A DNA stretch of 59,428 nt from a virus (Duplodnaviria > Caudoviricetes). Shown piece by piece: positions 133 to 56,221 of the stretch. Position numbers and translations under genes: made by a program. Each line of letters starts with the position of its first letter. The stretch's first letter is position 1. The notes beneath the pieces are model-generated. The model searched no databases. It worked only from the letters and a program-made list of their open reading frames with translations, and had not been told where the DNA came from. The stretch covers positions 1 to 59,428 of IMG/VR virus record IMGVR_UViG_3300027787_000003, one strand, 5' to 3'.

Positions 133-687
133 TTGGCTACGTTCAACGCCGACGGCACCGCCGAAGCTGCGCCCGCCTCCGAACAACTGGCTCCCCCGCC
201 TGACAACACCGACCACGCCGCCGTCGAGGCTGAGGCCGAGACCGAAGCGGTGATCGAAGCCCAGATCGCCGAGGCGGCGACCGACGACGACGTGCCCGAC
301 CCGCGCGTGGTCGAGCCTGAGGGACCGGGCACCACCATCGCCCTCGCCCCGAAGGTGGACATCAGCACCCTCGGCGAGGACTGGCCGTACGACTGGCTGG
401 AGTTCAAGGGCGACAAGCTCGGCATCCGGCTCCCGACGCGCCAGGCGCTCGCGGCGTTCTCCCTGGCCAGCTCGAAGTACGTCAGCCTCGGCGTGAAGAA
501 CGACCTGACCGGCCTGTTCATCGCGCGCCACCTCTCCCCCGAGAGCTACGGGCGCGTGTTCTCGCGGCTGATGGACCCCGACGAGAGCGACTACGACGTG
601 GACACCGTGGGCGAGCTGTTCAACGCGATCGTCATGGCGGCGGTCAACGCCGACAAGGTTGCTCCCAAGGGCGACGAGTCCAAGTAA
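133..687 (+). CDS. Tail assembly chaperone
   Basis: Acidic protein directly upstream of the tape measure gene. TTG start at 133 chosen because of the GGAAGG RBS at 120-125. Confidence 0.75.
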   Translation: MATFNADGTAEAAPASEQLAPPPDNTDHAAVEAEAETEAVIEAQIAEAATDDDVPDPRVVEPEGPGTTIALAPKVDISTLGEDWPYDWLEFKGDKLGIRLPTRQALAAFSLASSKYVSLGVKNDLTGLFIARHLSPESYGRVFSRLMDPDESDYDVDTVGELFNAIVMAAVNADKVAPKGDESK

Positions 688-715
688 TCGCAGCTCGATC
701 GGATAGCCTGACCGG

Positions 716-12045: not shown

Positions 12046-13238
12046 TGCCGTGGTTCCCTGAGCGGCCCGAGCCGGGCGACCTGCTCGCGCCGCCGCCGGG
12101 CTGGCACCCCGAGCCAGCGCCCGAGGAGTTCCTGATCGAGAAGCCGCCGGGCTGGTGGGCGGTGATCGCTCTCGACACGGCGATGACGGTCTACTGGGTG
12201 AGCGAGCTGGAGCTGGAGTTCATCAAGGGCGTCGGGTTCGAGGTGCTACACCTCAGCGTCAGCCGATCGCTGGCGCTCCAGAAGCTCGGGATGCTCAGCC
12301 TTCAGCGCAACGTCAACGTCACCACGGCGCTGGACATGCACGGCGTCTACATGCTCGGCCTCGCGCTGGCGATCACCCTTCAGCACACCCTGGCGCTGAC
12401 CAAGATCGCGAAGCTGGACTTCTCCAAGGCGCTCAACCTGACGCCGAACCTGGTGCTCGGCAACATCAAGACCATCGACATTCCGGCGTTCTGGTCGATG
12501 ACGCCGAGCCTGGTCTACACGCCGATCAAGATGCTGAGCCTGCCTCAGGCGGTCACCGCCACGCCGTCGCTTCAGCTCGGCGCGTTCCTGTCGATGGCGT
12601 TCAGCCAGTCGATTGAAATGTCCTCGGCGCTGGCGTTCGGGTTCCCGCCGACCGCCGAGGTGACCGACACCTACACCGCCGCCGGGGCGGCGACCCACAC
12701 GATCCGGCGGTGGGCCAATTTCATCGACGCGGTGACCCTGGGCGGCGGCGGCGGTGGCCAGGGGAGCGGCTGCTGCTTCGTCAACGGGTTCGGCGCGGGA
12801 CCAGGCGGGTACGCCGAGACCACCCTGACCCGCAACTCCGCGTCCACGGCGACGACGGTCGCCTGGTCGGTGCTCACGGCGGCGATCAACAACGGGACCG
12901 GCGGCAACGGCGGCAACGCGGGCGCGGGCGCGATCCCCGGTATCCCCGGCGCGGGCGGCAACGCCAGCACAATCACCATCGCCGGGTCGGGCACACTGAG
13001 CGGACCCGGCGGCTCAGGCGGCGCGCTGGGTGCCTGGGGCGCTGACATCACGGGCGGCGGGCCGGGCGCTCACTCGTTCAACGGCAAGCCCTACAACGGC
13101 GGGGCGAACGTGACCGGCTCGGGTGCCAACGGAAACGCTCCCGGCGGTGGCGGCGCGGCTGGCGCGGGCGGGTGCTGCTTCGGTACCAAGGGCGGCAACG
13201 GAGCCGTCGGGCGATCGTGGATGAGGAGCTACCAGTGA
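12045..13238 (+). CDS. Glycine-rich minor tail protein
   Basis: TGATG coupling at 12045. C-terminal Gly-rich domain (GGGGGG, GGNGGNAG, APGGGG). Confidence 0.8.
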   Translation: MPWFPERPEPGDLLAPPPGWHPEPAPEEFLIEKPPGWWAVIALDTAMTVYWVSELELEFIKGVGFEVLHLSVSRSLALQKLGMLSLQRNVNVTTALDMHGVYMLGLALAITLQHTLALTKIAKLDFSKALNLTPNLVLGNIKTIDIPAFWSMTPSLVYTPIKMLSLPQAVTATPSLQLGAFLSMAFSQSIEMSSALAFGFPPTAEVTDTYTAAGAATHTIRRWANFIDAVTLGGGGGGQGSGCCFVNGFGAGPGGYAETTLTRNSASTATTVAWSVLTAAINNGTGGNGGNAGAGAIPGIPGAGGNASTITIAGSGTLSGPGGSGGALGAWGADITGGGPGAHSFNGKPYNGGANVTGSGANGNAPGGGGAAGAGGCCFGTKGGNGAVGRSWMRSYQ

Positions 13239-13558
13239 CCGTGATGACCGAGCTTCAGGGCGACACGAACGACTACACCTGGGGAGTGCGGTACTGGTCG
13301 CTGAACGCCGTCGGCGCTGACCCCGGCGACGAGTATTCGTGGAGCGAGGCGGTTTTCATCACCGAATCGGCGCTCGACGCCTACACCCTGTTCGACCAGT
13401 ACGTGGCGGCGTACGCCGCGAACCCCGACGTCCGCAACATTCAGCTCGTCTACACCCCGAAAATCCAGTGGAGGGTCCAGCAAGAGGAGTCGCCCGGTGA
13501 CGCCGAAGCGGCTCGCCAGCGAATCGCTGAAGCCCTCCGCGACACGCCCAACGAATAG
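13235..13558 (+). CDS. Small tail-associated protein (paralogue of 13967 and 19006)
   Basis: GTGA overlap, GAGGAG RBS, C-terminal NPDVRNIQLVYTPKIQW motif. Confidence 0.65.
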   Translation: MTVMTELQGDTNDYTWGVRYWSLNAVGADPGDEYSWSEAVFITESALDAYTLFDQYVAAYAANPDVRNIQLVYTPKIQWRVQQEESPGDAEAARQRIAEALRDTPNE

Positions 13559-13567
13559 GATCGACCC

Positions 13568-13957
13568 GTGGCCGAAGGCATCAGCACATATCTGGCGAAC
13601 AAGCTGCTCGACCACGTTTGTCGCAACGTGGCCTACACGCCGCCCGCGATCGTCTACTTCCAGGCGCACGTCGGCGCGCCGGGCGCGGCGATGACGGCGA
13701 ACGTGGCGACCAACACCGCCCGCGTGGCGACCACCTGGGCGGCGGCGGCGGCTGGCGCGATCAGCCTGTCCAACACACCTGAGCACACCCTGGGCGGCAC
13801 GAACACCATCAGCCACGGATCGTTCTGGGACTCGCCGACGCCCGGCGGCGGCAACCCGCTGTGGTCATCGGCGGCGTCGGTCAGCAAGGGCGGCGTGGCG
13901 GGCGACATCATCCGCGTGAGCACGGCGGCGCTCAGCCTCGGCCCGCTGGCGAGCTAG
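13568..13957 (+). CDS. Minor tail protein
   Basis: 129 aa, N-terminal LANKLLDH and ISHGSFWDS motifs common in actinophage tail proteins. Confidence 0.7.
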   Translation: MAEGISTYLANKLLDHVCRNVAYTPPAIVYFQAHVGAPGAAMTANVATNTARVATTWAAAAAGAISLSNTPEHTLGGTNTISHGSFWDSPTPGGGNPLWSSAASVSKGGVAGDIIRVSTAALSLGPLAS

Positions 13958-13966
13958 GATCAGCCC

Positions 13967-14335
13967 GTGGCCGCATACGAATACGCCCTCGGGTTCGACG
14001 CCTGGACCGGCCCGGTCGAGAAGCTGCCGCCTCAGCCGATGGAGCCGCTACCGCCAGGGCCGGATGCCACGGTCGAGGAGCAGGACCGCCACGTCCGCGC
14101 GCTGGCCGATCACACCGACGCCAAGCGCGCCTACGAGACCGAGCTGCGGAAGCTCACCGCCGACGACGGCAACTGGACGACCCAGCGCACGCCGCTGCCG
14201 GTGACGACCAAGGACGACGCCGAGACCAGCGTGGCCGAGTTCGCCGAGCTGCACGCGACGAACCCGCTGGTGAAGAACGTCGGCCTCTACCGGACGCCCG
14301 CCGTGAAGTGGGAGCTGGTCACCAGCTACGGCTGA
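13967..14335 (+). CDS. Small tail-associated protein
   Basis: 122 aa, good codon usage, NPLVKNVGLYRTPAVKW motif. Confidence 0.65.
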   Translation: MAAYEYALGFDAWTGPVEKLPPQPMEPLPPGPDATVEEQDRHVRALADHTDAKRAYETELRKLTADDGNWTTQRTPLPVTTKDDAETSVAEFAELHATNPLVKNVGLYRTPAVKWELVTSYG

Positions 14336-14655
14336 GGGCGGTTCAGGTTCGGGAAGAACCCGCCGATGAACGCGCCCAGGTCGCCGATCACCGGCAGATT
14401 GATCCCCGGCGGCAACAGCTTGTCGATCGAGTCCCGCGCCGAATCGACCACCTCGGCGATGTCGGGCTTGCCGTCCTGGTCGAGGTCGGTGATCCGGTCG
14501 AAAGCCTTGTCGATCGCCGCGCCGATGGCGACCGGGAGGACCGGCAGAACGAGCTGAGTCACCAGCTTCGCCCCGAGGGCCATCGCCGCCGCCTGGGCGC
14601 GCTCGTCCTCGATGACGTCGATTACCAGTTCCTTGACCCAGCTCCGTACACCCAT
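14326..14655 (-). CDS. Hypothetical protein, antisense within the tail operon
   Basis: Fills the gap between two + genes. ATG at 14655 preceded by a -10-like TACGGT. Hydrophobic stretch and DLDQDGKPD loop. Confidence 0.65.
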   Translation of the reverse strand: MGVRSWVKELVIDVIEDERAQAAAMALGAKLVTQLVLPVLPVAIGAAIDKAFDRITDLDQDGKPDIAEVVDSARDSIDKLLPPGINLPVIGDLGAFIGGFFPNLNRPQP

Positions 14656-14685
14656 GCGCCCACCGTAGCGCGATACCCTGAGCCG

Positions 14686-15333
14686 GTGACCTCGCCGACC
14701 GTGTGCGTATCGGAGAATCTGGCCATCACCGCCGACGGGCGGCTGAGGCTGGCTCCCTGGTCGGTGCCGCAACTGGTCCTCGACGTCGTGGCGCACAGCT
14801 CAGCCGACACGACCAAGCTCACCGCCCACGAAACGCTGCCCGGCGTGCTGCTGATCGACAAGCTGGTCCAGTGGAAGAACTCAGCGCCGATCCCGCGCCA
14901 GGTCCGCGTCGAGGTCACCCGGCGCTGGCGGCGGTGGGTCACCAGCAACCCGAACGCCGTGCAGTTCCGCGATCGGTGGTCGAGCGCCATCACGCCCGCC
15001 GGTCAGGCCGCGCCGATCATTCCCGAGGAGCCGATCACCAGCGGCATCCTGAACGGCCAGGTCGGCACGGCGGGCGACATCGGCACGAACTCAGTCGCCG
15101 AGCCGAACCCCGGCAAGTTCTGGCAGTGGTGGGGCACCGGGTCGAGCGAGGAGTGGCTGGGTCCGGTCGAGCCGGGCGAGACCCTGAGGGTCTGGTACCG
15201 CCAATATGTCTGGACGCCGCCACCTTTCAGCGACAACGCGAACAAGAACTCGCCCGGCCACGAAGCCGAAGCGGGCTGGGCGCGGCTGAGCTTGTGGGCG
15301 TTCCCCGACCAGGGACGGCTGGTGGTCGGATGA
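14686..15333 (+). CDS. Virion structural protein (paralogue 1 of 3)
   Basis: GTG at 14686 in frame with ORF 13861-15333. Shares WxNxxP and RLxLxAxP motifs with the next two genes. Confidence 0.65.
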   Translation: MTSPTVCVSENLAITADGRLRLAPWSVPQLVLDVVAHSSADTTKLTAHETLPGVLLIDKLVQWKNSAPIPRQVRVEVTRRWRRWVTSNPNAVQFRDRWSSAITPAGQAAPIIPEEPITSGILNGQVGTAGDIGTNSVAEPNPGKFWQWWGTGSSEEWLGPVEPGETLRVWYRQYVWTPPPFSDNANKNSPGHEAEAGWARLSLWAFPDQGRLVVG

Positions 15334-15944
15334 GCAGCCTAAAGCTCTGCACCGCCGAGTACATGATCAGCGACTCCAATGGCCTCGGCCCGCGTCGGAC
15401 GTGGCTGCCTCGGGTGATCGCTGAGCAGTTCCTTGAGTCAACCAAGGACGGCGAAATCAAGCTCAGCCCTGACCCGGTGACGATGATCGACGGCGACCTG
15501 ACCTGGTTCAACAATTCGCCCGATCCGCAGCGGGTCTGGGTGCTGGTTCACACCGCGCCGCGCTCGATCATCGCCCAGAACCCGACGACGGTCGTCATTC
15601 ACGACGCCTGGACGCACCGCGTCGGGCGCGACCCGATGGCTGACTTCCCGAGCGTGGTTCAGAACACGTTCGGCGGTCGGCTCCAGATCGACCGGGCCAG
15701 CGTGGCGGCTGACGACATTCAGTTCGGGCGGTTCTTCCTCGACGGCGACGACTCCCAGACCTGGGTGGACCTCGGCGTCGTCCCGGCCAAGCAGAGCTTC
15801 CACTTCCGGTACCTGGCGGCGGTGCAGACCCCGAACACATGGATCGCGCCCGGCACGAACAGCGACGTCACGCCGCGCTGGGAGGCGTACGCCCGATGGA
15901 CCCGGCTCACCGCCTGGGGAGCGCCCGTGGAGGTGGCAGCGTGA
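15330..15944 (+). CDS. Virion structural protein (paralogue 2 of 3)
   Basis: ATGA overlap at 15330, shared motifs. Confidence 0.65.
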   Translation: MSSLKLCTAEYMISDSNGLGPRRTWLPRVIAEQFLESTKDGEIKLSPDPVTMIDGDLTWFNNSPDPQRVWVLVHTAPRSIIAQNPTTVVIHDAWTHRVGRDPMADFPSVVQNTFGGRLQIDRASVAADDIQFGRFFLDGDDSQTWVDLGVVPAKQSFHFRYLAAVQTPNTWIAPGTNSDVTPRWEAYARWTRLTAWGAPVEVAA

Positions 15945-16711
15945 CCGAGCCGTTCCCCTGCGTGGACACCGATCACTTCGAGGTCACCGCCGACGGCGCG
16001 ATCCGGCCTCAGCCGTGGATGCAGTGGCGGCACGTCGGCGGCGTCGAGGTGCCCAGCAAGTCAGGCCAGTACGGCGTGACGCTCTCGACCGGCGGCGGGG
16101 CGGTGCCCGGCGGCGTGGACATCTTCGGCACCCTGGGCACCCTGTTCGGGTCGCTGTTCTCGTTCCTGCCTGGAATCTTCGGAGCGGCCAGCCTTTTCAA
16201 CGTGGTCGAGCAGTCGGCCAGCGCGGCGGGCAACAAGAACGACCTGCTTCACGCGCTTCAGACGTCGTGGGTGAACGACTCCCCGGTGGACCAGTGGGTC
16301 TACGGCAAGCTCACCCGAGGCGGCTGCCGGGTGACGCTTCAGGCCCGCTCGCGAGGCGGGCTGCTGGTGACGTCGGGCTACAAGGTCGGCGCGCCGGGTG
16401 ATGCCGGTCCCCTGGTCCCGGCGTCGATGGTCGGCGTCGGCGCGGACATGGCGCGCGGTGGGACGCTGGCGACCGGCACGACCTATGGCATGGAGGAGAT
16501 TCGCCAGAACAGCGTGACCATCCCGCTCGCGCCCGAGCGCGCGGGCTGGGCCAAGGTCACGCCCGGCCAGTCGATCACCGCCCGCGCCGAGGTCAGGTTC
16601 ATCAGCGAGTTCTGGGAGCCGAGCACCATCGACGGCGGCACCAGCGGCTCGGAGTCGAGCTACGAGACCGGCGGCGCTCGCCTCGACCTGTTCGCCGTGC
16701 CGGTACTCTGA
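15941..16711 (+). CDS. Virion structural protein (paralogue 3 of 3)
   Basis: GTGA overlap at 15941, GGAGG RBS, shared motifs. Confidence 0.65.
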   Translation: MTEPFPCVDTDHFEVTADGAIRPQPWMQWRHVGGVEVPSKSGQYGVTLSTGGGAVPGGVDIFGTLGTLFGSLFSFLPGIFGAASLFNVVEQSASAAGNKNDLLHALQTSWVNDSPVDQWVYGKLTRGGCRVTLQARSRGGLLVTSGYKVGAPGDAGPLVPASMVGVGADMARGGTLATGTTYGMEEIRQNSVTIPLAPERAGWAKVTPGQSITARAEVRFISEFWEPSTIDGGTSGSESSYETGGARLDLFAVPVL

Positions 16712-16739
16712 GGGCTGATTCCCGACCTCGGAGGGTGAC

Positions 16740-17408
16740 TTGTATGACCCGCCAGCCGCGTACGACGACTGCCAATCGGACGCCGACGACGCGCCGACAC
16801 CGCCCGACCACCCGTACCGCGAAATCGAGGTCGAGGGCGTCGGCCTGATCCACGCGCGAAAGCCGCTGCCCAACGCGATCCCCGCGCTGGCCGGGGCGGC
16901 GAACAGCAAGTCCACCGGGCAGGGCCGGGTCGATCAGCTCGACATCTTCGTGCAGGCCCACCTCGCGCCGGGCGAGTTCGAGGGCCTGCTGGCGCGCATG
17001 ATGGACCCCGACGTCGAGCTGCCCGAGGACACGATGCTGAGGGTCAGCCGGGCGATCGCCACGGCGGGGACGGCCAGGCCCTACAGCGCGGTCATTCAGC
17101 TCGCGCTGATGGCCGCTCACAACTGGCGGGCGCTGCGGGTCAAGTACGCGGGCAACGGAATCGGCTCGCTGATGGCGCTGCCGTCGATGCACGTCGTCCT
17201 CGACATGATCGAGCAACTGGGCAGCGAGGCGGCGGCGACCGACGCCAAGAACGCCACCGAGGCGCGGGCCAAGATCACCAGCTACTTCGACAAGCTCTAC
17301 AAGCCCGACGCGACCATGATCAAGGTCGATGGAAAGCTGCCGCCGCCGCCTGGGTTCTCCGACGAGGAGGTCGAGGCGAGCTTCGATGCGTTCCTGAACG
17401 CCCGGTGA
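16740..17408 (+). CDS. Tail assembly chaperone-like protein (paralogue of 133-687 with a C-terminal extension)
   Basis: FVQAHLAPGEFEGLLARMMDPD aligns with FIARHLSPESYGRVFSRLMDPD of the chaperone. GGAGGG upstream of the TTG. Confidence 0.6.
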   Translation: MYDPPAAYDDCQSDADDAPTPPDHPYREIEVEGVGLIHARKPLPNAIPALAGAANSKSTGQGRVDQLDIFVQAHLAPGEFEGLLARMMDPDVELPEDTMLRVSRAIATAGTARPYSAVIQLALMAAHNWRALRVKYAGNGIGSLMALPSMHVVLDMIEQLGSEAAATDAKNATEARAKITSYFDKLYKPDATMIKVDGKLPPPPGFSDEEVEASFDAFLNAR

Positions 17409-17447
17409 TGACGGGCTGATGCCCGCCGCTCCGTTACCCTGACCATC

Positions 17448-17855
17448 ATGGCCATCACCTCCGTATTCTTCGACACCGCCGCCCCGGCGGGGTCCAAGTT
17501 CGACGCCGAGGTCGCCGCCGAAATCGAGGAGCTGGCTCCCGGCCTCGCGCCGGGCGAGGTCGGCGAGGCTGAGCTGGCCGACGGCGCGGTGACGAACGAC
17601 AAGCTGCACGCGGGCGCTGTGACCGCCGAGAAGATCGCCGAGGGCGGCGTGGACACCGCCAACTACGCGGCTGAATCGGTGGACACCAACGCCCTCGCGC
17701 CCGACTCAGTGACCGCCGAGAAGGCGGGCGTCGGGGTCTCGACCGCCTACGACGCCGCCGGTAACCCGGTGGAGGACAAGAAGGTCTACCTCACGACCGC
17801 CCAGTACAACCTGCTCAGCCCGCCCGATCCCAACACGACGTACTACATCAGCTAA
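17448..17855 (+). CDS. Minor tail/fibre protein with 10-residue repeats
   Basis: LADGAVTNDK/LHAGAVTAEK/LAPDSVTAEK repeats and C-terminal TTAQYNLLSPPDPNTTYYI. Confidence 0.7.
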   Translation: MAITSVFFDTAAPAGSKFDAEVAAEIEELAPGLAPGEVGEAELADGAVTNDKLHAGAVTAEKIAEGGVDTANYAAESVDTNALAPDSVTAEKAGVGVSTAYDAAGNPVEDKKVYLTTAQYNLLSPPDPNTTYYIS

Positions 17856-18995
17856 ATGCCGATCCGACACGGCGCGCTGCCGCAGCCCATCGCGATCCGC
17901 CGAGGCCGCACCGTCATCCGCGAGGTGCGGCGCGGCGGGACGCTGGTCTGGTCATCGAGCGCGGTGCGCGACTGTTTCGACTTCGAGGGCTGGCTTCAGG
18001 GCTGGATTGACGAGATGTGCGACGATCCGGCGCACCTGATCCCCGACGGTCTGGGCTACCTGTTCGACGGGCTGGACAACGCCGTCGGCTCGGTCGTGCA
18101 GTACACGAACGACGCTGTGAACCAGACCGGCGTGCTGGTGGCCAACACCACGAACAGCGCCGTTGACGCCTACTGCGGCATGTGGGGCGGCTCAGCGCCC
18201 GACGGGCTGCTGGGTCTGATCAACGGGCTGCCGCTGATCGGTGGCCCGGCGAAGCCGTTCCTCGACATTCTGGAGCAGTGGTTCGGCGGCACGCTGGAGG
18301 TCGATCAGCTCATCGGCAAGATTCCCGTCGTCGGCCAGCTCGCCCAGAACCTCGGCCTGATCCCCGACCAGCTCGGAAACCTGCTCGATCCGATCAACTA
18401 CGTGATTGACGAGGCAGGCAACGTCGTCGGCGTCATCACTTGCGGCGCGTACAAGGACATCGGCGGCGTGTTCGAGCCGCTGTGCTTCGTCATCGGCCAG
18501 GTCGGCGGCGCGGCGCGAATGCTCATCCCCGACGGGCTGATGTCGCTCGATCTGACGACCAGCCGATTCCGGCACCCGACGGTGATGCTCGCCGACGACG
18601 GCTACCTGGAGGTCGAGATTGCCGAGGGCGGCGGGCCGGGCGTCATCACCCAGGTTTTCCGCCGGTACTCCAATGACGGCTCGGGCAACGCGGGCGTCGG
18701 CCTCGACCTGCGGGACCGGGCGGTCTCGATCGTCCGCCGGGTCGGTGGCGTCGATACCCTGGTGAAGCCCAACCTGGCCAGCTTCGGCGGCGGCGACAAG
18801 CTGCGCCTTGTCCAGACCGGCAACCTGCACGAACTGTTCAAGAACGGCGAGCCGGTCGGTTCGTGGAACGACGCGGGCGCGACGGCGGTCAAGTCAGCCG
18901 CCGCCCGCTCGATCGCGATGCTCATGCAGGGCGCTCAGCAGTTCGGAGGGAGCCGACTGTTCTCGCCCTCGCTGAGTTGCGTCGAGGCGGCGTAA
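17856..18995 (+). CDS. Minor tail protein
   Basis: 379 aa abutting the previous stop, beta-sandwich-like C-terminus. Confidence 0.65.
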   Translation: MPIRHGALPQPIAIRRGRTVIREVRRGGTLVWSSSAVRDCFDFEGWLQGWIDEMCDDPAHLIPDGLGYLFDGLDNAVGSVVQYTNDAVNQTGVLVANTTNSAVDAYCGMWGGSAPDGLLGLINGLPLIGGPAKPFLDILEQWFGGTLEVDQLIGKIPVVGQLAQNLGLIPDQLGNLLDPINYVIDEAGNVVGVITCGAYKDIGGVFEPLCFVIGQVGGAARMLIPDGLMSLDLTTSRFRHPTVMLADDGYLEVEIAEGGGPGVITQVFRRYSNDGSGNAGVGLDLRDRAVSIVRRVGGVDTLVKPNLASFGGGDKLRLVQTGNLHELFKNGEPVGSWNDAGATAVKSAAARSIAMLMQGAQQFGGSRLFSPSLSCVEAA

Positions 18996-19005
18996 TCTCG
19001 CCGCC

Positions 19006-19278
19006 ATGAACCCCACAAACGTCGAAGCATTCGAGTTTGCCCTGTGGTACGAGTGGACCGGCGACGATCCCAGCGACCCGTCGGCCACCTGGACAGGCAC
19101 GCGCTACGTGCTCGGCGAGGGCCAGGCCGGTCTCGATCAAGCCCTGGCCGAGCTGGACAACATTCAGGGCTACATCGACGCGGGCTACGTGACCAACGTG
19201 CGCGCGGTGGCGGTGCGGTACGCCTCGATTCAGACCTGGACCGACTGGCAGACCGAGGGCGGCTCGCTGAGCAACTAG
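19006..19278 (+). CDS. Small tail-associated protein
   Basis: 90 aa. FEFALWYEWTG start resembles 13967. Confidence 0.6.
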   Translation: MNPTNVEAFEFALWYEWTGDDPSDPSATWTGTRYVLGEGQAGLDQALAELDNIQGYIDAGYVTNVRAVAVRYASIQTWTDWQTEGGSLSN

Positions 19279-19279
19279 C

Positions 19280-19537
19280 TCAGGCGACGTCCCTGTAGCG
19301 CCGCTCGCGGGTCTCGCGCTGCCGCTCGCGGGTGATCCGCTCGGCGAAGGGTGGTTGTGAGGGCTGAGGCCCGAGCGACCGGGAGCGGGCATCTGAGGGC
19401 CGATCGAGGATCGGTCGCAGCACGCTCGCGACGATCATCGCCAGGCCGAACGCCCAGACCACCCAGGCGCGGCGGTAGTCGGAGTCCAGCCCGGCGACGA
19501 ACACCAGGGCACCGGCCAGGAACAGGCGCACGTTCAC
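19280..19537 (-). CDS. Small membrane protein (2 TM, basic tail)
   Basis: Two hydrophobic segments and an Arg-rich C-terminus. Confidence 0.6.
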   Translation of the reverse strand: MNVRLFLAGALVFVAGLDSDYRRAWVVWAFGLAMIVASVLRPILDRPSDARSRSLGPQPSQPPFAERITRERQRETRERRYRDVA

Positions 19538-50851: not shown

Positions 50852-51685
50852 ATGGCCTCGACCTCGACCGTCGGCAAGACGACCAACGTCCCGCCGTCCA
50901 CGCTGAATACCTTCCACCGCAACCCTCGCAAGGGCGACATCCCGGCGATCATGGCGAGCCTGCGCCGCCATAACCAGTACAAACCGATCACGGTCAACGT
51001 CGGCACCCACACGGGCCGACCGAACGAGGTGCTGGCGGGCAACCACACCCTGCTCGCGATCCGCGCGCTGGCCGAGGACGACCCCGACGACAAGCGATGG
51101 CACAAGGCGATCGCGTTCTGGGTGGACGTCGATGACGACATGGCCGACCGAATCGTGGTCGCCGACAACCAAACCGGACAGCTCGGCGGGTTCGATGAAG
51201 CCGAGCTGGCCGAGCTGGTGGCCGGGTTCGGCTCAGACATCGAGGGCCTGGGGTTCACTGAGGCCGACATCGCCGACCTGAACGCGCTGCACCAGGAGGG
51301 GCAAACCGACCTACCGCCGTTCACCTCGCCATTCGATGACCGTGGCAACGGCTCCACCGGGGAGACCGGCCCGCGCGACGACGGGCTGGTGAACGCGAAG
51401 GACATGACTCAGCGCCGCGACGAGTACGCCGAGAACGCCGGTCAGCGCATGGTCGTGCTCTCGATGCCGATTAACGTGTTCGTCTGGGTTCAGGAGGCCC
51501 TGGCCGAGGTGCGCTCGGCTGAGGGCGTCGAGACCAACACCGACGCCGTGGTGAAGCTGCTGGAGGCGTACACCAGCCGGTCAGCGCCCGCGCCCGAGGC
51601 CACGCCCGAGCCGGTCGCCGACGAGTTCGAGCGATTCCCCGCCGAGCCGGGCGATCCTGAGGGCTTCGATGACGCTGGCGACTGA
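50852..51685 (+). CDS. ParB/Srx-like N-terminal domain protein
   Basis: HRNPRKG..IMASL..QYKPI..VLAGNHT..IVVADN. ATG 50852 lies 6 nt after TACGAT. Confidence 0.85.
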   Translation: MASTSTVGKTTNVPPSTLNTFHRNPRKGDIPAIMASLRRHNQYKPITVNVGTHTGRPNEVLAGNHTLLAIRALAEDDPDDKRWHKAIAFWVDVDDDMADRIVVADNQTGQLGGFDEAELAELVAGFGSDIEGLGFTEADIADLNALHQEGQTDLPPFTSPFDDRGNGSTGETGPRDDGLVNAKDMTQRRDEYAENAGQRMVVLSMPINVFVWVQEALAEVRSAEGVETNTDAVVKLLEAYTSRSAPAPEATPEPVADEFERFPAEPGDPEGFDDAGD

Positions 51686-52547
51686 GCTTCATCGCCTCGA
51701 TGTGAAGCGCGTGGCGTCAGCCGAGGACGCGACGACGTGCGTCGGCGACATGGTGCCCGAGCGCGAGCCGACCGACATGCGCCCTGGGACGGTGGTCTAC
51801 GACGCCGACACGGGCGAGCCGGTCCTGGGATACCTCGCCCTGGCCGACCCAGGCCCGCTGCGGCGGGCGCTGCTCCAGATCGACTGCGGGGCGGCGGTCC
51901 AGCGGGCCAACAACTACCGCTCCCGGTCGCGGACGTTCGGCTATGCGCCGCGCCGCCCGGTGATCTGGCGCGAGGCGTGCGGCATCGCCACCCTCGGGCG
52001 CGACCAGCCCGACATCGAGGCGGTGCTGGAGGGGTACGCCGATCAGTTCATGGACGGGCTGGCCCGCATCGACGTCAACCTGATCCGCGCCGGGCGGGCG
52101 GCGACCGAGAGCGTTCGGCCCGACTGGAAGATGGGCGGCGCGCAGTTCTGGACCTCGGGCGTGGTCAACGACACCGCCCAGCTCCCGTACCACCGCGACG
52201 GGTTCAACTTCCCGGTCTGGTCGGCGATGCCGCTGGTCCGCCGGGGAACGCGCGGCGGTCATCTTCACCTCCCCGAGTACGACCTGGTGGTGCCGTGCGC
52301 CGACGCCACGGTGACGTACTTCGAGGGCTTCCGCCTGGTCCACGGCGTCACGCCGATTCGCCGGGTCAAGGCCAAGGAGGGCTACCGAATCAGCGCGGTC
52401 TACTACGCGCTGCGGGGGATGAAGAACTGCCGCTCAGCCGCCGAGGAAGCCGCCTACGGGCGGAAGCGCCGAACCGAGCGCGAGGCTGAAATGGCCGCGC
52501 GCCTGGCCGCTGGCGATCGGTCGATCCCCGGTCAGACCAAGGGCTGA
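51669..52547 (+). CDS. TET/JBP-family 2-oxoglutarate/Fe(II) dioxygenase
   Basis: WTSGVVN..LPYHRDGFN (HxD), GGHLHLPEY, VHGVTP (distal His), YRISAVYY (2OG-binding Arg). Confidence 0.9.
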   Translation: MTLATELHRLDVKRVASAEDATTCVGDMVPEREPTDMRPGTVVYDADTGEPVLGYLALADPGPLRRALLQIDCGAAVQRANNYRSRSRTFGYAPRRPVIWREACGIATLGRDQPDIEAVLEGYADQFMDGLARIDVNLIRAGRAATESVRPDWKMGGAQFWTSGVVNDTAQLPYHRDGFNFPVWSAMPLVRRGTRGGHLHLPEYDLVVPCADATVTYFEGFRLVHGVTPIRRVKAKEGYRISAVYYALRGMKNCRSAAEEAAYGRKRRTEREAEMAARLAAGDRSIPGQTKG

Positions 52548-52586: not shown

Positions 52587-53333
52587 ATGCCTCGGAACGT
52601 CCAGATCGCGATTCCCTCGTACCACCGCCCGCGCCGCATCGCTGAGACCACGCTGCCGCTGCTGCGCGACGGCGGCGTGGACATGGCCAGCGTGACCGTG
52701 TTCCTGACCGATGAGACCGAGCTGGCCGCGTACACGCCCGCCATCGAGGCGTTCGGCATCGGCGTCGAGGTCGGCCACGGCGTCGGCACCGCCGAGGCCC
52801 ACAATCACATCGCCCGCCACTATCCACCAGGGACGCCGCTGGTCCAGATAGACGACGACGTGAGCCGCATCGTCCAGCGCCAGGACGAGAAAACGCTGGT
52901 CGATGTGCGCGACCTCCCGGCGCTGTTCGACCTGGCGTTCCATGAGGCGTGCGGGACGCTGTGGTGCGTGTACCCGGCGGCGAACCCGTTCTACATGGCC
53001 GACCGGGTGCGGCGCTCGGGTCTCTGGTACGCCGAGGGCTGCCTGTTCGGCTACGAGGTCTCAGGCGGTGACTGGGAGCTGTGCCACGTTGACCACGGCG
53101 ACGACTACGAGCGGTCGATCAGGTTCTTCGAGGCCCTGGGCGCGGTGACGCGGCTCGACAACTACAGCTTCGTGAGCAAGTTCTGGAAGGAGCCGGGTGG
53201 CCTTCAGGACGTCCGCACGCCCGAGAACGTCATGGCTGGGCTGACGTACATCACCGACCGCTGGCCACACCTGGCGAAGCTCTACTACAACGCCGCCGGG
53301 CGTCCCAACCTGCGGCTGAAGGTGATCAAGTGA
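52587..53333 (+). CDS. GT-A fold glycosyltransferase (TET-associated type)
   Basis: IAIPSYHRP N-terminal strand, VQIDDD metal-binding motif, DDYERSI, PGGLQ. Confidence 0.85.
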   Translation: MPRNVQIAIPSYHRPRRIAETTLPLLRDGGVDMASVTVFLTDETELAAYTPAIEAFGIGVEVGHGVGTAEAHNHIARHYPPGTPLVQIDDDVSRIVQRQDEKTLVDVRDLPALFDLAFHEACGTLWCVYPAANPFYMADRVRRSGLWYAEGCLFGYEVSGGDWELCHVDHGDDYERSIRFFEALGAVTRLDNYSFVSKFWKEPGGLQDVRTPENVMAGLTYITDRWPHLAKLYYNAAGRPNLRLKVIK

Positions 53334-53908
53334 CCGCCCTGATCGTCGCGCCACACTGCGACGACGCCGAGCTGGGCTGCTCGATGGTGGCCAAGGGCGC
53401 GCGGCTCGCCGTCGTCAGCGCGAACGACGGCGCTCGCTGGGAGGAGCAGGTCCAAGGCGCGGCGTGGATGGGCGTGGCCGACACCATGCGCGCGGGGTTC
53501 CCCGACGGGGAGGTGGTCCACGACCGCCACCTGGTCGGGTTCATCGAACTGGCGCTCACCGGCTGCGACGTCGTGTACTCGCCGCCGCTGGCCGACACCC
53601 ATCAGGACCACGCCGCCGTCGCCCGCGCGGTGATCAGCGCCGCCCGCCGGTCGCCGGTCGGCATCATCGAGTACGAGACCCCGAGCGTGCTGCCGAGCTG
53701 GGAGCCGAACTGGTGGGTGCCGATGACGCCGACCGACCTGGACGAGCAACACCTGGCCCTGAGCTGCCACGTCAGCCAACACGACCGGCCCTACTTCAGC
53801 CCGCACTGGCTCGGCAATCGAGCCATGTTCCGAGGCCAACAGGTCGGCGTCCCGTTCGCCCAGACCTTCCGCGTGGTGCGGGCGGTCCGACAAGGAGGGT
53901 TCCTGTGA
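53330..53908 (+). CDS. PIG-L/LmbE-family N-acetyl-sugar deacetylase
   Basis: VAPHCDDAELG and DTHQDH Zn motifs, R..E, YETP, CHVSQ. Confidence 0.9.
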   Translation: MTALIVAPHCDDAELGCSMVAKGARLAVVSANDGARWEEQVQGAAWMGVADTMRAGFPDGEVVHDRHLVGFIELALTGCDVVYSPPLADTHQDHAAVARAVISAARRSPVGIIEYETPSVLPSWEPNWWVPMTPTDLDEQHLALSCHVSQHDRPYFSPHWLGNRAMFRGQQVGVPFAQTFRVVRAVRQGGFL

Positions 53909-54483
53909 CCATTCACCGCCTGATCTACCTCGCCGGTCAGCCCGGCTCGGGCAAAAGCACGCTGATGGCGCGCCTGACCGAGGGCTACGACCGAATCCAC
54001 GTCGGCCCGCCCGAGGTGCCCGTGGCTCACGACCAGCTCACGCGCGAGGTGCCCGGCGGCGTCGATGACGGCACGATCGAAATCGTCGGAGCCGAGCTTG
54101 GCGAGCAGCGCGGCGCGTTCGGCGGCACCGACCTGCTCCCGGCGTCGATCATCGACAAGGCCATCCCGTGGATCGAGACCGCTCCGTACCGGCTGGTCCT
54201 CGCCGAGGGCCAGCGCCTCGCGAACAAGCGATTCCTCCTGGCAGCCGCCTCGACCTACCAGGTGACGCTGGCGCTGCTCGACCACGCCGACCAGGACGCC
54301 TGGAGGCGCAAGCTCAGCCGGTCGCGTGGCCGGATTCAGAACGAGAGCTGGGTGAAGGGTCGGCTCACCGCGAACCGTAACCTCGCCGACCAGCTCGACG
54401 GCAAGCTGGACATCTGCGTGCTGCGTGGTCATCCTGACGCGCTGTTCGAGCCGCTGAAGGCGGTAATCTCGGGCGATGGCTGA
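53905..54483 (+). CDS. P-loop (NMP-kinase-like) protein
   Basis: LIYLAGQPGSGKST Walker A, FGGTD, EGQRL. GTGA overlap, AGGAGG RBS. Confidence 0.8.
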   Translation: MTIHRLIYLAGQPGSGKSTLMARLTEGYDRIHVGPPEVPVAHDQLTREVPGGVDDGTIEIVGAELGEQRGAFGGTDLLPASIIDKAIPWIETAPYRLVLAEGQRLANKRFLLAAASTYQVTLALLDHADQDAWRRKLSRSRGRIQNESWVKGRLTANRNLADQLDGKLDICVLRGHPDALFEPLKAVISGDG

Positions 54484-56221
54484 GGTCGAGTTTCCAGACC
54501 GCTCGGGCGTTCCGCTGCCCGACGTCTGGACCGCTGACGGCGCGTTCGACAGCCAGCGAGCGGCCCTGATCGCCGCTGAAACCGACGACTGGCCCGACGA
54601 CCAGCGGGCGGCGATGCTGGCCAGCCTCCGTGCCGCTGAGGTGCGCGCCGTGGCCAAGACACGCTACCGGCACCCCGCCGACATCGCCCGCAGCGTCGAT
54701 CCCAACTTCGTGCTGACGCCCGCCCTCGATCTGATCAGCTCGGCGATCGAGCGCGTGCTGGACAGCCCGCGCAAGATCAACCTGGCGATCACGATGCCGC
54801 CTCAGGAGGGCAAATCAACCACGGCGGCGGTCTGGACGCCGATCCGCGCGCTCCAGAAGAACCCGAACCGCCGGATCATTCTCTCGACCTACGCCGACGC
54901 CCTCGCCGAGGCGCACAGCCGCGCCGCCCGCTCAATCATCAGCACCTACGGCGCGGGCCTGACCGATTCGCTGACCGGCCTGGCGGTCGAGGACAAGATC
55001 GGACTGAAGCTCGCCCAGGGAGCGAACAAGGTCAGCGCGTGGTCGGTCGAGGGCGGCGCGGGCGGTCTGGTCGCCGCCGGTATCGGCTCCACGATCACCG
55101 GCCTCCCGGCTGACCTGTTCATCATTGACGACCCGTTCAAGAACATGATGGAGGCCGACTCAGCCGCCCACCGCAACCGCATCGAGGCGTGGTTCAGCTC
55201 GGTCGCGCTGACCCGCCTCGCGCCCGACGCCAGCGTGATCCTGATTCAGACCCGCTGGCACCCCGAGGACTTGGCCGGAAAGGTGTTCGCCGGGGAGAAG
55301 CTGCTGCCCAAGGGCGAGCGGACCTGGCGGTTCTTGAACATCCCGGCCATCGCCGAGGAGGGCATCCCCGACGCCCTGGGACGCGCGCCGGGCGTGCCGA
55401 TGGTCAGCGCCCGCGACACCGCCGAGGCCAAGCGCAACTTCGCCGTCACGCGCCGCCAGGTCGGCGAGCGCACCTGGTACGCCCTCTACCAGGGCAGCCC
55501 GCGCAACCCGGCGGGCGGCATCTTCCAGCGGGCGTGGTTCGAGCCTCGGCTGCCTGAGCCGCCGCTGTACCCGATCGCCTCGATGGTCGGCGTGGACCCG
55601 GCTGACTCAGGCGAGGGCGACGAAGCCGGAATCATCGGCGGGATGCTCTACCACGACGCGGGCCAGGCCAAGGTCGCCCTGACCCACGACCGATCCGGCC
55701 AGTTCACCGCCGACCAGTGGGCGCGCGAGGCGGTGCTGCTGGCGCTCGAAATCGGCGCTCGGGAGGTCGCCGTCGAGAGCTACACCAGCTCGACCACCTA
55801 CGTCCAGGTGGTCAAGCGGGCCTACCAGGCGGTCCACCGCGAGGCGGTGACCAAGGCCCACAACGGCGCGGCGCTGACCCCGGTCGAGCAGCGCGCCCTG
55901 ACCGACATTCCGCCGTTCATGGTGACCAAGTGGCGCGGCCCGACCAAGGCCGACGCCGTGGCCCGCTCGGGCGCGCTGAGCCAGGCCCTCGAAACGGGGA
56001 AGTGCCGAACGGTCGATTACGTGATGCGCGTGTTCGAGGAGCAGGCGTGCGACTGGCAGGCCGGTCAACACCAGCCCGACCGGGTGGCGGCGGCGGTCAT
56101 CACTCACGACAAGCTCGCCACGCTGGCGGGCGGCGGAATGCACCTGGCCAGTCCGATCGACGCCCAGGCGAGCGTCGTCGGGGTCGCGCCGCCCGCGTAC
56201 CTGCGGCGCAAGATCGGCTAA
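54476..56221 (+). CDS. terL: Terminase large subunit
   Basis: MPPQEGKST, FIIDDP, IQTRWH, ALYQG.P, VGVDPA, PDRV. Confidence 0.95.
   Translation: MAEVEFPDRSGVPLPDVWTADGAFDSQRAALIAAETDDWPDDQRAAMLASLRAAEVRAVAKTRYRHPADIARSVDPNFVLTPALDLISSAIERVLDSPRKINLAITMPPQEGKSTTAAVWTPIRALQKNPNRRIILSTYADALAEAHSRAARSIISTYGAGLTDSLTGLAVEDKIGLKLAQGANKVSAWSVEGGAGGLVAAGIGSTITGLPADLFIIDDPFKNMMEADSAAHRNRIEAWFSSVALTRLAPDASVILIQTRWHPEDLAGKVFAGEKLLPKGERTWRFLNIPAIAEEGIPDALGRAPGVPMVSARDTAEAKRNFAVTRRQVGERTWYALYQGSPRNPAGGIFQRAWFEPRLPEPPLYPIASMVGVDPADSGEGDEAGIIGGMLYHDAGQAKVALTHDRSGQFTADQWAREAVLLALEIGAREVAVESYTSSTTYVQVVKRAYQAVHREAVTKAHNGAALTPVEQRALTDIPPFMVTKWRGPTKADAVARSGALSQALETGKCRTVDYVMRVFEEQACDWQAGQHQPDRVAAAVITHDKLATLAGGGMHLASPIDAQASVVGVAPPAYLRRKIG

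What the first reader, a model, noticed from the sequence alone, without database searches (positions are those of the whole stretch)
51669..52547. TET/JBP dioxygenase with no cytosine methyltransferase: thymine is the likely substrate
Seen: no ORF in 59 kb carries recognisable C5-methyltransferase motifs (FxGxG, PCQ, ENV), and there is no thymidylate-synthase-like hydroxymethylase. The unseen part of the genome lies between the head gene and the tail chaperone, where structural genes are expected. Inference: this enzyme behaves like JBP (T -> 5hmU) rather than like phage TETs that act on 5mC made by a linked methyltransferase, so the modification would be installed on thymine after replication.
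Basis: inference. Interest (0 to 1): 0.7.

Follow-up and report, generated by a model that had tools for sequence, protein, structure and literature searches.

The report
ParB-partnered phage thymine hydroxylase, sugar cassette
This mycobacteriophage gene encodes a TET/JBP-type enzyme that most likely hydroxylates thymine in finished DNA with help from the ParB-like protein next door.

Summary
The ORF at 51669-52547 (+) is real. It is a TET/JBP-fold Fe(II)/2-oxoglutarate dioxygenase, not the "queuine tRNA-ribosyltransferase" that databases call it. The AF2 model has pLDDT 94.6, the top 26 Foldseek PDB hits are all TET-family, and H175/D177/H225/R240 are invariant in 65 homologues.

HMM searches found no C5-methyltransferase and no ThyA/ThyX-like enzyme. 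They covered the window, its complete 71-kb relative Mycobacterium phage Indlovu (88.6% nt identity) and 9 further complete actinophage genomes.

The gene overlaps an upstream ParB-like gene (CTPase-fold N-domain, disordered linker, C-terminal domain, no HTH). The enzyme also carries the C-terminal extension. Both are hallmarks of the ParB-dependent phage T-dioxygenases characterised by O'Toole et al. (PNAS 2026; preprint 2025).

So thymine as substrate is supported, by homology and context only, and it is already in print. This scan has also reported such cassettes on other DNA.

What I add:
- The ParB, dioxygenase, TAGT glycosyltransferase and PIG-L deacetylase genes form a module that recurs in Arthrobacter phages without any kinase.
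- The P-loop kinase beside the terminase occurs in 416 phage records against 100 with the dioxygenase.
- The likely product is therefore a glycosylated, probably amino-sugar, 5hmU. It is uncharacterised, and the kinase is probably not needed to make it.

The parts
50852..51685 (+). ParB-like protein (277 aa from the ATG that matches Indlovu gp1; the open frame reaches back to a TTG at 50750). Probable activator of the dioxygenase. Its end overlaps the dioxygenase start by 17 nt.
   Evidence: phrog_6392 'ParB-like partition protein' 1.5e-123; no Pfam hit at E<=0.01. AF2 model pLDDT 79.9: folded N-domain plus two helices (residues 1-151), pLDDT <50 over 163-185, helical C-terminal domain 185-241. 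Foldseek PDB top hits are ParB-CDP 6sdk (4.9e-6), Myxococcus ParB 7bnr, Caulobacter ParB 7bm8, Noc, KorB and PadC. A homologue is found in 4 of 4 further dioxygenase-bearing phage genomes tested and not in Orion, which lacks the dioxygenase.
51669..52547 (+). 5-methylpyrimidine dioxygenase (TET/JBP fold, 292 aa). Probable thymine hydroxylase making 5hmU in DNA.
   Evidence: see the observation check. C254 is nearly invariant and is followed by a C-terminal helix at 257-280. No TGT domain (PF01702: 0 candidates).
52587..53333 (+). TET-associated glycosyltransferase (TAGT, 248 aa). Probable sugar transfer onto 5hmU.
   Evidence: Pfam PF20691 1.1e-28, 101 bits against a cut-off of 27.5; phrog_842 'beta-glucosyl-HMC-alpha-glucosyltransferase' 8.6e-9. 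tblastn finds it in 20 phage records, 18 of which also hold the PIG-L gene directly downstream.
53330..53908 (+). PIG-L/LmbE-family N-acetylglucosaminyl deacetylase (192 aa). Probable deacetylation of the transferred sugar. Overlaps TAGT by 4 nt.
   Evidence: Pfam PF02585 1.7e-9, 38.7 bits against 28.2; weak match to BshB1 TIGR04001 6.1e-8. PDB 1uan (TT1542) 6.3e-6, with the PHxDDxELGC and HxDH stretches aligned.
53905..54483 (+). P-loop nucleotide kinase 3 family protein (192 aa from GTG 53905). Overlaps PIG-L by 4 nt and TerL by 8 nt. Its membership of the modification pathway is doubtful.
   Evidence: Pfam PF18751 5.6e-65 and 3.7e-67 in the six-frame search. Found in 416 phage records against 100 for the dioxygenase. 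Present in Orion, which has neither dioxygenase nor ParB. Absent from Bolt007 and Altadena, which have the ParB, dioxygenase, TAGT and PIG-L genes.
54476..56221 (+). Large terminase (context: the cassette sits immediately upstream of the packaging genes).
   Evidence: Pfam Terminase_6N 2.9e-9 and phrog_38 4e-96.

Best explanation
The ORF encodes a phage 5-methylpyrimidine dioxygenase (5mYOX, TET/JBP fold) of the ParB-dependent T-dioxygenase subclass. After replication it uses Fe(II), 2-oxoglutarate and O2 to hydroxylate the C5-methyl of selected thymines in double-stranded phage DNA, giving 5-hydroxymethyluracil. The overlapping upstream ParB-like protein (CTPase-fold N-domain, linker and C-terminal domain, no HTH) is needed to switch it on when the substrate is duplex DNA. 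The TAGT glycosyltransferase then puts a sugar on the new hydroxyl, probably an N-acetylhexosamine. The PIG-L deacetylase removes the acetyl group, leaving a base-J-like amino-sugar thymine derivative. Shown here: the fold, the catalytic residues, the ParB architecture, the absence of any cytosine-C5 methyltransferase or hydroxymethylase, and the co-inheritance of the four genes. Inferred: the substrate (from published enzymes of the same architecture and from the lack of 5mC), ParB dependence, the sugar's identity, and the order of steps. The neighbouring P-loop kinase is probably a conserved packaging-side gene of this phage lineage rather than a necessary step of the sugar pathway.
For: Enzyme identity. 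The AF2 model (pLDDT 94.6) has only TET-family chains as its top 26 Foldseek PDB hits. A profile of 65 homologues hits TET2, NgTET1 and CMD1, with the HRD and H...R motifs aligned. H175, D177, H225 and R240 are invariant in 65 of 65 sequences.

No 5mC source in the phage. PF00145 gave 0 candidates in the window and in 10 complete related genomes. No methyltransferase family turned up in 66 scanned window proteins. PF00303 and PF02511 gave 0, so 5hmU cannot come from a nucleotide-level hydroxymethylase.

Host. [quoted passage not shown]

Subclass hallmarks, as defined in PMC13229309. The ParB gene is adjacent and overlapping. The ParB model has an N-domain, two helices, a disordered linker and a C-terminal domain, and Myxococcus and Caulobacter ParB are among its best structural hits. 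The dioxygenase has a C-terminal extension after a near-invariant Cys (C254, helix 257-280). There is no neighbouring C5-methyltransferase.

Published activity. Members of that subclass gave 8-35% 5hmU in E. coli only when co-expressed with the cognate ParB.

Co-inheritance. ParB tracks the dioxygenase in 4 of 4 extra genomes tested and is absent from Orion, which lacks the dioxygenase.

Complex prediction, ParB against dioxygenase: weak support. Score 0.55 (median of 3 runs); best of 3 controls 0.00. The mark was reached by 58 of 80 solved complexes and by 2 of 110 mismatched pairs. At 0.60 or under, only 7 of those 80 solved complexes reached it, as did both mismatched pairs that passed. The runs agree in at least 33% of contacts, and the partner's pLDDT is at least 66.

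Sugar branch. TAGT scores well above the Pfam cut-off. TAGT and PIG-L co-occur in 18 phage records. At least 17 of these 18 also hold the dioxygenase. In Arthrobacter phages Bolt007 and Altadena the ParB, dioxygenase, TAGT and PIG-L genes stand together, away from the terminase and with no PF18751 kinase in the genome.

Other annotators. GenBank depositors label the orthologue 'Tet-like J-binding protein' in Gordonia phage Wooper and Arthrobacter phage Altadena.
Against: Nothing here measures activity. The substrate is inferred.

The Pfam Tet_JBP score is below the curated cut-off (16.4 against 34.9 bits). It is also below the cut-off in all 4 relatives that matched.

In the paper, most ParB-dependent homologues gave under 5% 5hmU in E. 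coli. The characterised enzymes also oxidise 5mC in vitro (abstract). The authors could not trap a 5mYOX-ParB complex.

Old reports of 5mC in M. smegmatis exist, and the 2016 paper suggests re-examining the question.

The window is only 84% complete. The missing 10.8 kb is judged from Indlovu, which is 88.6% identical, and not from this phage itself.

The complex prediction is weak support only.

The sugar's identity rests solely on the family of the neighbouring deacetylase.

The kinase is translationally coupled to PIG-L (4-nt overlap), and its role is unexplained. In Wooper the homologous position is annotated '5-hmU DNA kinase', next to an aGPT-Pplase2 gene. A kinase step in this phage therefore cannot be excluded.
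Confidence: 0.75

Rival explanations
1. The enzyme is a 5mC dioxygenase, like phage TET43. It acts on 5-methylcytosine put on phage DNA by a host methyltransferase, or by a phage methyltransferase too divergent for PF00145 or encoded in the missing part. The sugar would then be attached to 5hmC.
For: Its closest solved structural relatives are all 5mC enzymes. Characterised phage T-dioxygenases also oxidise 5mC in vitro (abstract). Burke et al. 2021 showed phage TET with C5-MT and GT making glycosyl-5hmC (PMC8256090 passages). Old reports of 5mC in M. smegmatis exist. Some phage C5-MTs lack canonical motifs.
Against: PF00145 gave 0 candidates at E<=1 in the window and in 10 complete related genomes infecting four host genera. 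No methyltransferase of any Pfam family appeared in 66 window proteins. Recent work has not seen 5mC in the host. The ParB partner and the C-terminal extension are features of the T-oxidising subclass.
Confidence: 0.1
2. The full five-gene run is one pathway of the 5-HMUDK type. The kinase (pyro)phosphorylates 5hmU made by the dioxygenase, and the phosphorylated base is then substituted or decorated, with TAGT and PIG-L acting on or after that intermediate.
For: PF18751 matches at 5.6e-65. The genes from TAGT to TerL are linked by 4-8 nt overlaps. O'Toole et al. state that the ParB-dependent subclass is consistently linked with P-loop kinases, GATases and amino acid:DNA transferases. Wooper has a dioxygenase, aGPT-Pplase2 and a '5-hmU DNA kinase' in the same positions. 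Ottawa has a GATase, ParB genes, a dioxygenase and a kinase.
Against: The kinase is in 416 phage records against 100 for the dioxygenase. Orion has the kinase directly before TerL, with no dioxygenase and no ParB. Bolt007 and Altadena keep the ParB, dioxygenase, TAGT and PIG-L genes with no kinase in the genome. The window has no aGPT-Pplase/AADT gene to use a phosphorylated intermediate.
Confidence: 0.2
3. The gene is a DpdA/queuine tRNA-ribosyltransferase-like transglycosylase that inserts a 7-deazaguanine into DNA, as the RefSeq/PHROG labels say.
For: phrog_6059 is labelled 'queuine tRNA-ribosyltransferase' (3.4e-146). Many GenBank/RefSeq records carry that name, and one carries 'DpdA-like tRNA-guanine transglycosylase'.
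Against: The confident model is a double-stranded beta-helix, and none of the Foldseek hits listed is a TGT or TIM-barrel protein. The profile hits TET proteins only. PF01702 gave 0 candidates at E<=1, while it rang in 14 of 14 controls. The HxD...H...R motif is invariant. Neither the phage nor its Mycobacterium host has preQ0 synthesis genes according to Hutinet et al. 2019 (PMC6884629 passages).
Confidence: 0.01

Closest known systems
ParB-dependent phage T-dioxygenases (5mYOX clade C1, e.g. 5mYOX176 with ParB176), O'Toole et al., PNAS 2026 (PMC13229309; preprint 10.1101/2025.08.14.668559)
   Same: About 290-aa TET/JBP-fold enzyme with a C-terminal extension. Adjacent ParB-like gene with an N-terminal nucleotide-binding fold, a short helical segment, a disordered linker and a C-terminal domain, and no HTH. 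No neighbouring C5-methyltransferase. Sits among DNA-hypermodification genes next to the terminase.
   Different: Sequence relation to the tested enzymes is unknown (supplements closed). [quoted passage not shown] Here the partners are a TAGT glycosyltransferase and a PIG-L deacetylase. The main text does not mention mycobacteriophages, actinophages or deacetylases (0 occurrences each).
Kinetoplastid base J pathway (JBP1/JBP2 thymidine hydroxylases plus a glucosyltransferase)
   Same: Post-replicative T to 5hmU by a TET/JBP-fold enzyme, followed by O-glycosylation of the hydroxymethyl group.
   Different: The phage enzyme is a bare catalytic domain of 292 aa with a separate ParB-like activator. 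JBPs are large multidomain proteins with a J-binding or SWI2/SNF2 part (recalled, not tested here). The added deacetylase predicts an amino sugar rather than glucose.
Phage 5mC dioxygenase systems (C5-MT with TET and GT, e.g. TET43), Burke et al. 2021 (PMC8256090); Pyle et al. 2023 preprint (10.1101/2023.12.21.572611)
   Same: Post-replicative oxidation by a phage TET-like enzyme, followed by glycosylation of the hydroxymethyl pyrimidine.
   Different: Those clusters carry a cognate C5-methyltransferase and no ParB. Here there is no methyltransferase and there is a ParB.
Thymidine hypermodification via 5-hmdU DNA kinase and amino acid:DNA transferases (phages ViI, M6, SP10, PhiW-14), Lee et al. 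2018 (PMC5889632, passages)
   Same: 5hmU in DNA is the handle for further modification, and a P-loop kinase gene is present in the cluster.
   Different: In those phages 5hmdU is made before replication at the nucleotide level. Here no hydroxymethylase exists and no transferase for a phosphorylated intermediate was found. The kinase here occurs widely without the dioxygenase.
Same module in isolated actinophages: Mycobacterium phages Indlovu, Acadian, Baee, Rich and others; Arthrobacter phages Bolt007, Altadena, Bumble, Prairie, Lilmac1015
   Same: Orthologous ParB, dioxygenase, TAGT and PIG-L genes in the same order. Some depositors already call the enzyme 'Tet-like J-binding protein'.
   Different: The Arthrobacter versions lack the kinase and are not next to the terminase. 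No chemical analysis of any of these DNAs was found in my searches.

Membership tests
TET/JBP (5mYOX) dioxygenase superfamily | Double-stranded beta-helix fold closest to TET-type enzymes | tested here: met
   AF2 pLDDT 94.6. Foldseek PDB ranks 1-26 are all NgTET1, CcTet, TET2 or CMD1, E 1.5e-10 to 5.9e-9; AlkB-type enzymes appear only from 8.8e-7.
TET/JBP (5mYOX) dioxygenase superfamily | HxD...H iron triad and the 2-oxoglutarate-binding Arg | tested here: met
   H175, D177, H225 and R240 are invariant in 65 of 65 sequences. HRD and H...R align with the TET2 motifs.
TET/JBP (5mYOX) dioxygenase superfamily | Pfam PF12851 score above the gathering cut-off | tested here: not met
   16.4 bits against 34.9; 17.4 bits in the six-frame search, and below the cut-off in all 4 of the 5 records that matched. 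Many homologues in the protein collection do carry PF12851. O'Toole et al. note that thousands of phage 5mYOX contigs lack this annotation.
ParB-dependent T-dioxygenase subclass (O'Toole 2026) | Co-located ParB homologue with NBD and CTD but no DNA-binding HTH domain | tested here: met
   The genes overlap by 17 nt. Model domains are given. ParB/Noc/KorB N-domains are the best PDB matches over about 150 columns.
ParB-dependent T-dioxygenase subclass (O'Toole 2026) | C-terminal extension of the dioxygenase beyond the last residue conserved in both subclasses (a Cys) | tested here: met
   C254 is conserved in at least 90% of sequences and is followed by 38 residues containing helix 257-280. Equating C254 with C280 of 5mYOX176 is my inference.
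ParB-dependent T-dioxygenase subclass (O'Toole 2026) | No cognate C5-methyltransferase | tested here: met
ParB-dependent T-dioxygenase subclass (O'Toole 2026) | Phylogenetic or SSN placement in clade C1 with the tested enzymes | not tested
ParB-dependent T-dioxygenase subclass (O'Toole 2026) | T to 5hmU activity on dsDNA that requires the cognate ParB | not testable with these tools
   Needs co-expression and nucleoside LC-MS. The only proxy is the complex prediction, which gave weak support: score 0.55, best control 0.00.
Kinetoplastid JBP1/JBP2 | Hydroxylase domain fused to a J-DNA-binding domain (JBP1) or a SWI2/SNF2 ATPase (JBP2) | tested here: not met
   The protein is 292 aa and models as a single domain plus a C-terminal helix. 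The JBP architecture is recalled from the literature, not from a call.
DpdA / tRNA-guanine transglycosylase | TGT TIM-barrel domain (PF01702) | tested here: not met
   0 candidates at E<=1 in the window, Indlovu and Orion, while 14 of 14 control genomes rang. No TGT appears among the listed Foldseek or profile hits.
TET-associated glycosyltransferase (TAGT, PF20691) | Pfam score above the cut-off and linkage to a TET/JBP gene | tested here: met
   101.1 bits against 27.5. The gene lies 39 nt downstream of the dioxygenase.
PIG-L/LmbE N-acetylglucosaminyl deacetylases (PF02585) | Pfam score above the cut-off; conserved metal-binding His/Asp stretches | tested here: met
   38.7 bits against 28.2. 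PHCDDAELGC and THQDH align with the same stretches of TT1542, PDB 1uan. That these are the metal ligands is recalled.
5-hmdU DNA kinase (5-HMUDK) step of thymidine hypermodification | P-loop kinase that co-occurs with a source of 5hmU and with an enzyme that uses the phosphorylated base | tested here: inconclusive
   PF18751 matches strongly. However, the kinase is in 416 records against 100 with the dioxygenase. It is present in Orion without the dioxygenase, and absent from Bolt007 and Altadena, which have it. No AADT/aGPT-Pplase was detected in the window.

The most novel reading that the evidence does not exclude
Cluster-B-type mycobacteriophages of the Indlovu/Acadian kind, and a group of Arthrobacter phages, carry a self-contained four-gene module: ParB-like activator, thymine dioxygenase, TAGT glycosyltransferase and PIG-L deacetylase. 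This module would make an undescribed DNA base entirely after replication. The base would be a base-J analogue in which 5-hydroxymethyluracil bears a de-N-acetylated amino sugar, for example 5-(glucosaminyl-oxymethyl)uracil. It would be positively charged at neutral pH and placed at selected thymine motifs. The P-loop kinase beside the terminase would not be part of this chemistry.
Probability: 0.4. Interest if true: 0.6.

Novelty: new member of a known kind. Interest (0 to 1): 0.3.

Why it matters
Dozens of mycobacteriophage records (and PHROG 6059) call this protein a queuine tRNA-ribosyltransferase, when it is a TET/JBP-fold dioxygenase.

Two things remain open and easy to test, because Indlovu, Acadian, Baee and the Arthrobacter phages are isolated phages of harmless laboratory hosts:

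- The chemical identity of the final base. A glycosylated, probably amino-sugar, thymine would be the first base-J-like base shown in a bacterial virus.
- What the near-universal Cluster B kinase beside the terminase does, given that it occurs with and without the dioxygenase.

Tried and rejected
1. Direct sequence search of the dioxygenase against the PDB gave only a chance hit (E 0.82). The profile and the fold search were needed.
2. Pfam and NCBIfam gave nothing significant for the ParB-like protein. A profile search against the PDB gave nothing either. Only the predicted fold showed the ParB relation.
3. Iyer et al. 2013 (NAR 41:7635), which I recall as the first prediction of these phage TET/JBP-TAGT operons, is not held by DOI or by PMC id. 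What I say of it is recall.
4. Papers on modified DNA in mycobacteriophages of this type: four searches found none. A first search was rejected for a malformed term.
5. Fused forms of the kinase, such as kinase-terminase: the 'longer' search found none. The tool itself rates this as weak evidence.
6. The TGT/DpdA reading was rejected on fold.
7. PDB sequence searches of TAGT and the kinase gave no significant match.
8. One mis-set ORF reference (wrong frame, 2 stops) was dropped from the Pfam sweep. My ORF filter kept 65 ORFs. 59 went into the sweep, 5 were scanned earlier (ParB-like, dioxygenase, TAGT, PIG-L, TerL), and the tape-measure ORF 716-7015 was left out. Small genes under 60 aa, or any the composition filter missed, were not scanned by Pfam. 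The six-frame family searches cover them.
9. I did not try to find sequencing runs or lay reads. Short-read data would not show the modification.
Full report
**What is there.** The window (59,428 bp, 69% GC) is a permuted fragment of a Cluster-B-type mycobacteriophage.
- Over the cassette it is 88.6% identical in DNA to Mycobacterium phage Indlovu (MW055906, 71,061 bp).
- Window base 50852 corresponds to Indlovu base 1, the window end to Indlovu 8546, and window base 2 to Indlovu 19383. The window therefore lacks the equivalent of Indlovu 8547-19382.
- Indlovu annotates that interval as capsid maturation protease/MuF, capsid subunits, major tail protein, head-to-tail adaptor and small unnamed genes.
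- The ORF of the finding is exactly as stated: ATG 51669 to stop 52547, 292 aa, 91% identical to Indlovu gp2.

**The gene run.** All genes are on the + strand.
- ParB-like, 50852-51685, overlapping the next gene by 17 nt.
- The dioxygenase, 51669-52547.
- A TAGT glycosyltransferase, 52587-53333 (PF20691, 1.1e-28).
- A PIG-L deacetylase, 53330-53908 (PF02585, 1.7e-9).
- A P-loop nucleotide kinase, 53905-54483 (PF18751, 5.6e-65).
- The large terminase, 54476-56221.

**Is it a TET/JBP enzyme?** By Pfam alone only marginally: Tet_JBP scores 16.4 bits against a cut-off of 34.9. PHROGs and many GenBank/RefSeq records call it 'queuine tRNA-ribosyltransferase'. I tested both readings.
- An alignment of 65 homologues (28-91% identical) has H175, D177, H225 and R240 invariant.
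- Its profile hits TET2 (7.9e-5), NgTET1 (2.4e-3) and CMD1 (0.025) in the PDB, with the HRD and H...R motifs aligned.
- The AF2 model is confident (pLDDT 94.6, pTM 0.90).
- Its Foldseek PDB hits at ranks 1-26 are all TET-family (NgTET1, CcTet, TET2, CMD1; E 1.5e-10 to 5.9e-9). AlkB-type enzymes follow from 8.8e-7, and no transglycosylase is listed.
- PF01702 (TGT) has no candidate in the window at E<=1, though it rings in 14 of 14 control genomes.

The transglycosylase label is a misannotation. Some depositors already use 'oxidoreductase', 'hydroxylase' or 'Tet-like J-binding protein'.

**Is there really no methyltransferase or hydroxymethylase?**
- PF00145 gave no candidate at E<=1 in the window, the whole Indlovu record, six more complete relatives (Kozie, Ottawa, Acadian, Cooper, Wooper, LilMcDreamy) and Orion, Bolt007 and Altadena. 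The same search rang in 12 of 14 control genomes.
- PF01555, PF00303 and PF02511 gave none in the window or Indlovu.
- Pfam scans of 59 further window ORFs listed 32 families, none a methyltransferase.
[quoted passage not shown] It also notes old contrary reports and suggests re-examination (PMC4938668, passages).

**What is already known.** O'Toole et al. [quoted passage not shown] I read the abstract and sections 5, 6, 8, 9, 11, 12 and 13.
- The ParB-dependent subclass has a neighbouring ParB homologue with a nucleotide-binding domain, a short helical segment, an unstructured linker of about 50 aa and a C-terminal domain, but no DNA-binding domain. Myxococcus and Caulobacter ParB are its nearest structures.
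- The dioxygenase of that subclass has a C-terminal extension.
- There is no adjacent C5-methyltransferase.
- Three pairs gave 8-35% 5hmU in E. coli only with ParB. The others gave under 5%.
- Only 6% of all mined 5mYOX pathways had a C5-MT.
- Earlier work pointed the same way. Burke et al. 2021 found TET89 oxidising T. Pyle et al. 2023 inferred that most 5mYOX make 5hmU.
- Iyer et al. 2013, which I recall predicted such operons, was not available.
- This scan has already reported such cassettes on other DNA.

**Does this locus fit that subclass?**
- The ParB-like protein has no Pfam hit.
- Its AF2 model (pLDDT 79.9) has a folded N-domain plus two helices (residues 1-151), a low-confidence linker (163-185 below pLDDT 50) and a helical C-terminal domain (185-241).
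- Foldseek puts ParB-CDP (6sdk, 4.9e-6), Myxococcus ParB (7bnr) and Caulobacter ParB (7bm8) first, followed by Noc, KorB, PadC and sulfiredoxins.
- The dioxygenase has a near-invariant C254 followed by 38 residues with a long helix at 257-280.
- A complex prediction of the two proteins gave weak support. The score was 0.55 and the best of 3 controls 0.00. The mark was reached by 58 of 80 solved complexes and 2 of 110 mismatched pairs. At 0.60 or under it was reached by only 7 of those 80, and by both mismatches that passed. The runs agree in at least 33% of contacts, and the partner's pLDDT is at least 66.
- A ParB homologue is present in 4 of 4 further dioxygenase-bearing genomes tested (Kozie, Bolt007, Altadena, Ottawa). 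It is absent from Orion, which has no dioxygenase.
- I could not place the protein among the paper's tested enzymes, because their sequences are in closed supplements.

**What the neighbours say about the pathway.**

| Protein | Phage records with a tblastn match |
|---|---|
| Dioxygenase | 100 (64 Mycobacterium, 15 Microbacterium, 8 Arthrobacter, 7 Gordonia, 5 cyanophage, 1 Rhodococcus) |
| TAGT | 20 |
| PIG-L | 21 |
| Kinase | 416 |

- TAGT and PIG-L share 18 records: 12 Mycobacterium and 6 Arthrobacter. At least 17 of these 18 also hold the dioxygenase. Klevey was not among the rows shown.
- In Arthrobacter phages Bolt007 and Altadena the order is ParB, one or two small ORFs, dioxygenase, glycosyltransferase, deacetylase. 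The module is far from the terminase, and the genome has no PF18751 kinase.
- Conversely, Orion has the kinase as gene 1 directly before TerL (PF18751, 360 bits), with no dioxygenase and no ParB.
- Other relatives fill the slot between dioxygenase and kinase differently. Cooper has nothing there. Wooper has an aGPT-Pplase2 gene. LilMcDreamy has two unnamed genes.
- I conclude that ParB with the dioxygenase is the constant core and the tailoring genes are interchangeable. The TAGT and PIG-L branch does not need the kinase, which is a lineage-wide gene beside the terminase whose role is open.
- The deacetylase family acts on N-acetylglucosaminyl conjugates. It matches BshB1 weakly and the LmbE-like TT1542. 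This suggests the transferred sugar is an N-acetylhexosamine that is then deacetylated. That step is inference only.

**Verdict.**
- The kind of system is published and was seen before in this scan, so this is a new member of a known kind.
- The unresolved parts are the final base made by the sugar and deacetylase branch, and the function of the kinase. My four literature searches found no chemical analysis of these phage DNAs.

Noticed in passing
window 53905-54483 (+); Orion NC_008197 16-564 (L009): The PF18751 P-loop kinase directly upstream of TerL is in 416 phage records (376 Mycobacterium), against 100 records with the dioxygenase. In Orion it is gene 1, with no ParB or dioxygenase in the genome. 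RefSeq often labels it 'terminase small subunit' and SEA-PHAGES labels it 'adenylate kinase'. Its real role is unexplained.
   Followed up: partly
window 51669-52547; PHROG 6059; many RefSeq/GenBank mycobacteriophage records: There is a systematic misannotation: the TET/JBP-fold dioxygenase is labelled 'queuine tRNA-ribosyltransferase' or 'DpdA-like tRNA-guanine transglycosylase'. The same PHROG-derived label also sits on distant cyanophage homologues (MED4-117, MED4-184).
   Followed up: yes
proteins P0312, P0314, P0317, P0337 (Vincenzo), P0356, P0368; P0313, P0324 (Knocker), P0346 (Funsized): The N-terminal half of this ParB-like protein (52-62% of the query covered, at 60-79% identity) also occurs fused to an N6/N4 DNA methylase domain (PF01555), or to PF20314, in other mycobacteriophages and metagenome contigs. 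The same ParB module may therefore partner different DNA-modifying enzymes.
   Followed up: no
Arthrobacter phage Ottawa OQ938580 39965-43516 (L004): There are four ParB-like matches in a row upstream of the dioxygenase (three annotated ParB genes, one of them with two matching stretches), plus a glutamine amidotransferase gene nearby. This is an expanded ParB set next to one dioxygenase.
   Followed up: no
Microbacterium phage Kozie OK040792 (L003), 1-882 and 51386-52045: The dioxygenase is gene 1 and the ParB homologue lies about 1 kb from the right end of the linear record. The pair is adjacent only across the genome ends.
   Followed up: partly
window 1-59428 against Indlovu: The window is a permuted, incomplete assembly: the conventional genome start falls at window 50852, and about 10.8 kb of structural genes are missing between the window's two ends. 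Similarity to Indlovu drops to about 73% over the tape-measure start (window 2-4061) and to 75-83% in parts of 36.7-45 kb.
   Followed up: yes
Synechococcus phage S-CBWM1 MG450654 5210-5863; Vibrio phages vB_VpS_PG28 and VH2_2019: There are distant homologues of the TAGT (26% identity, in the cyanophage) and of the PIG-L deacetylase (30%, in the Vibrio phages, annotated BshB1) outside the actinophages. Their contexts were not examined.
   Followed up: no
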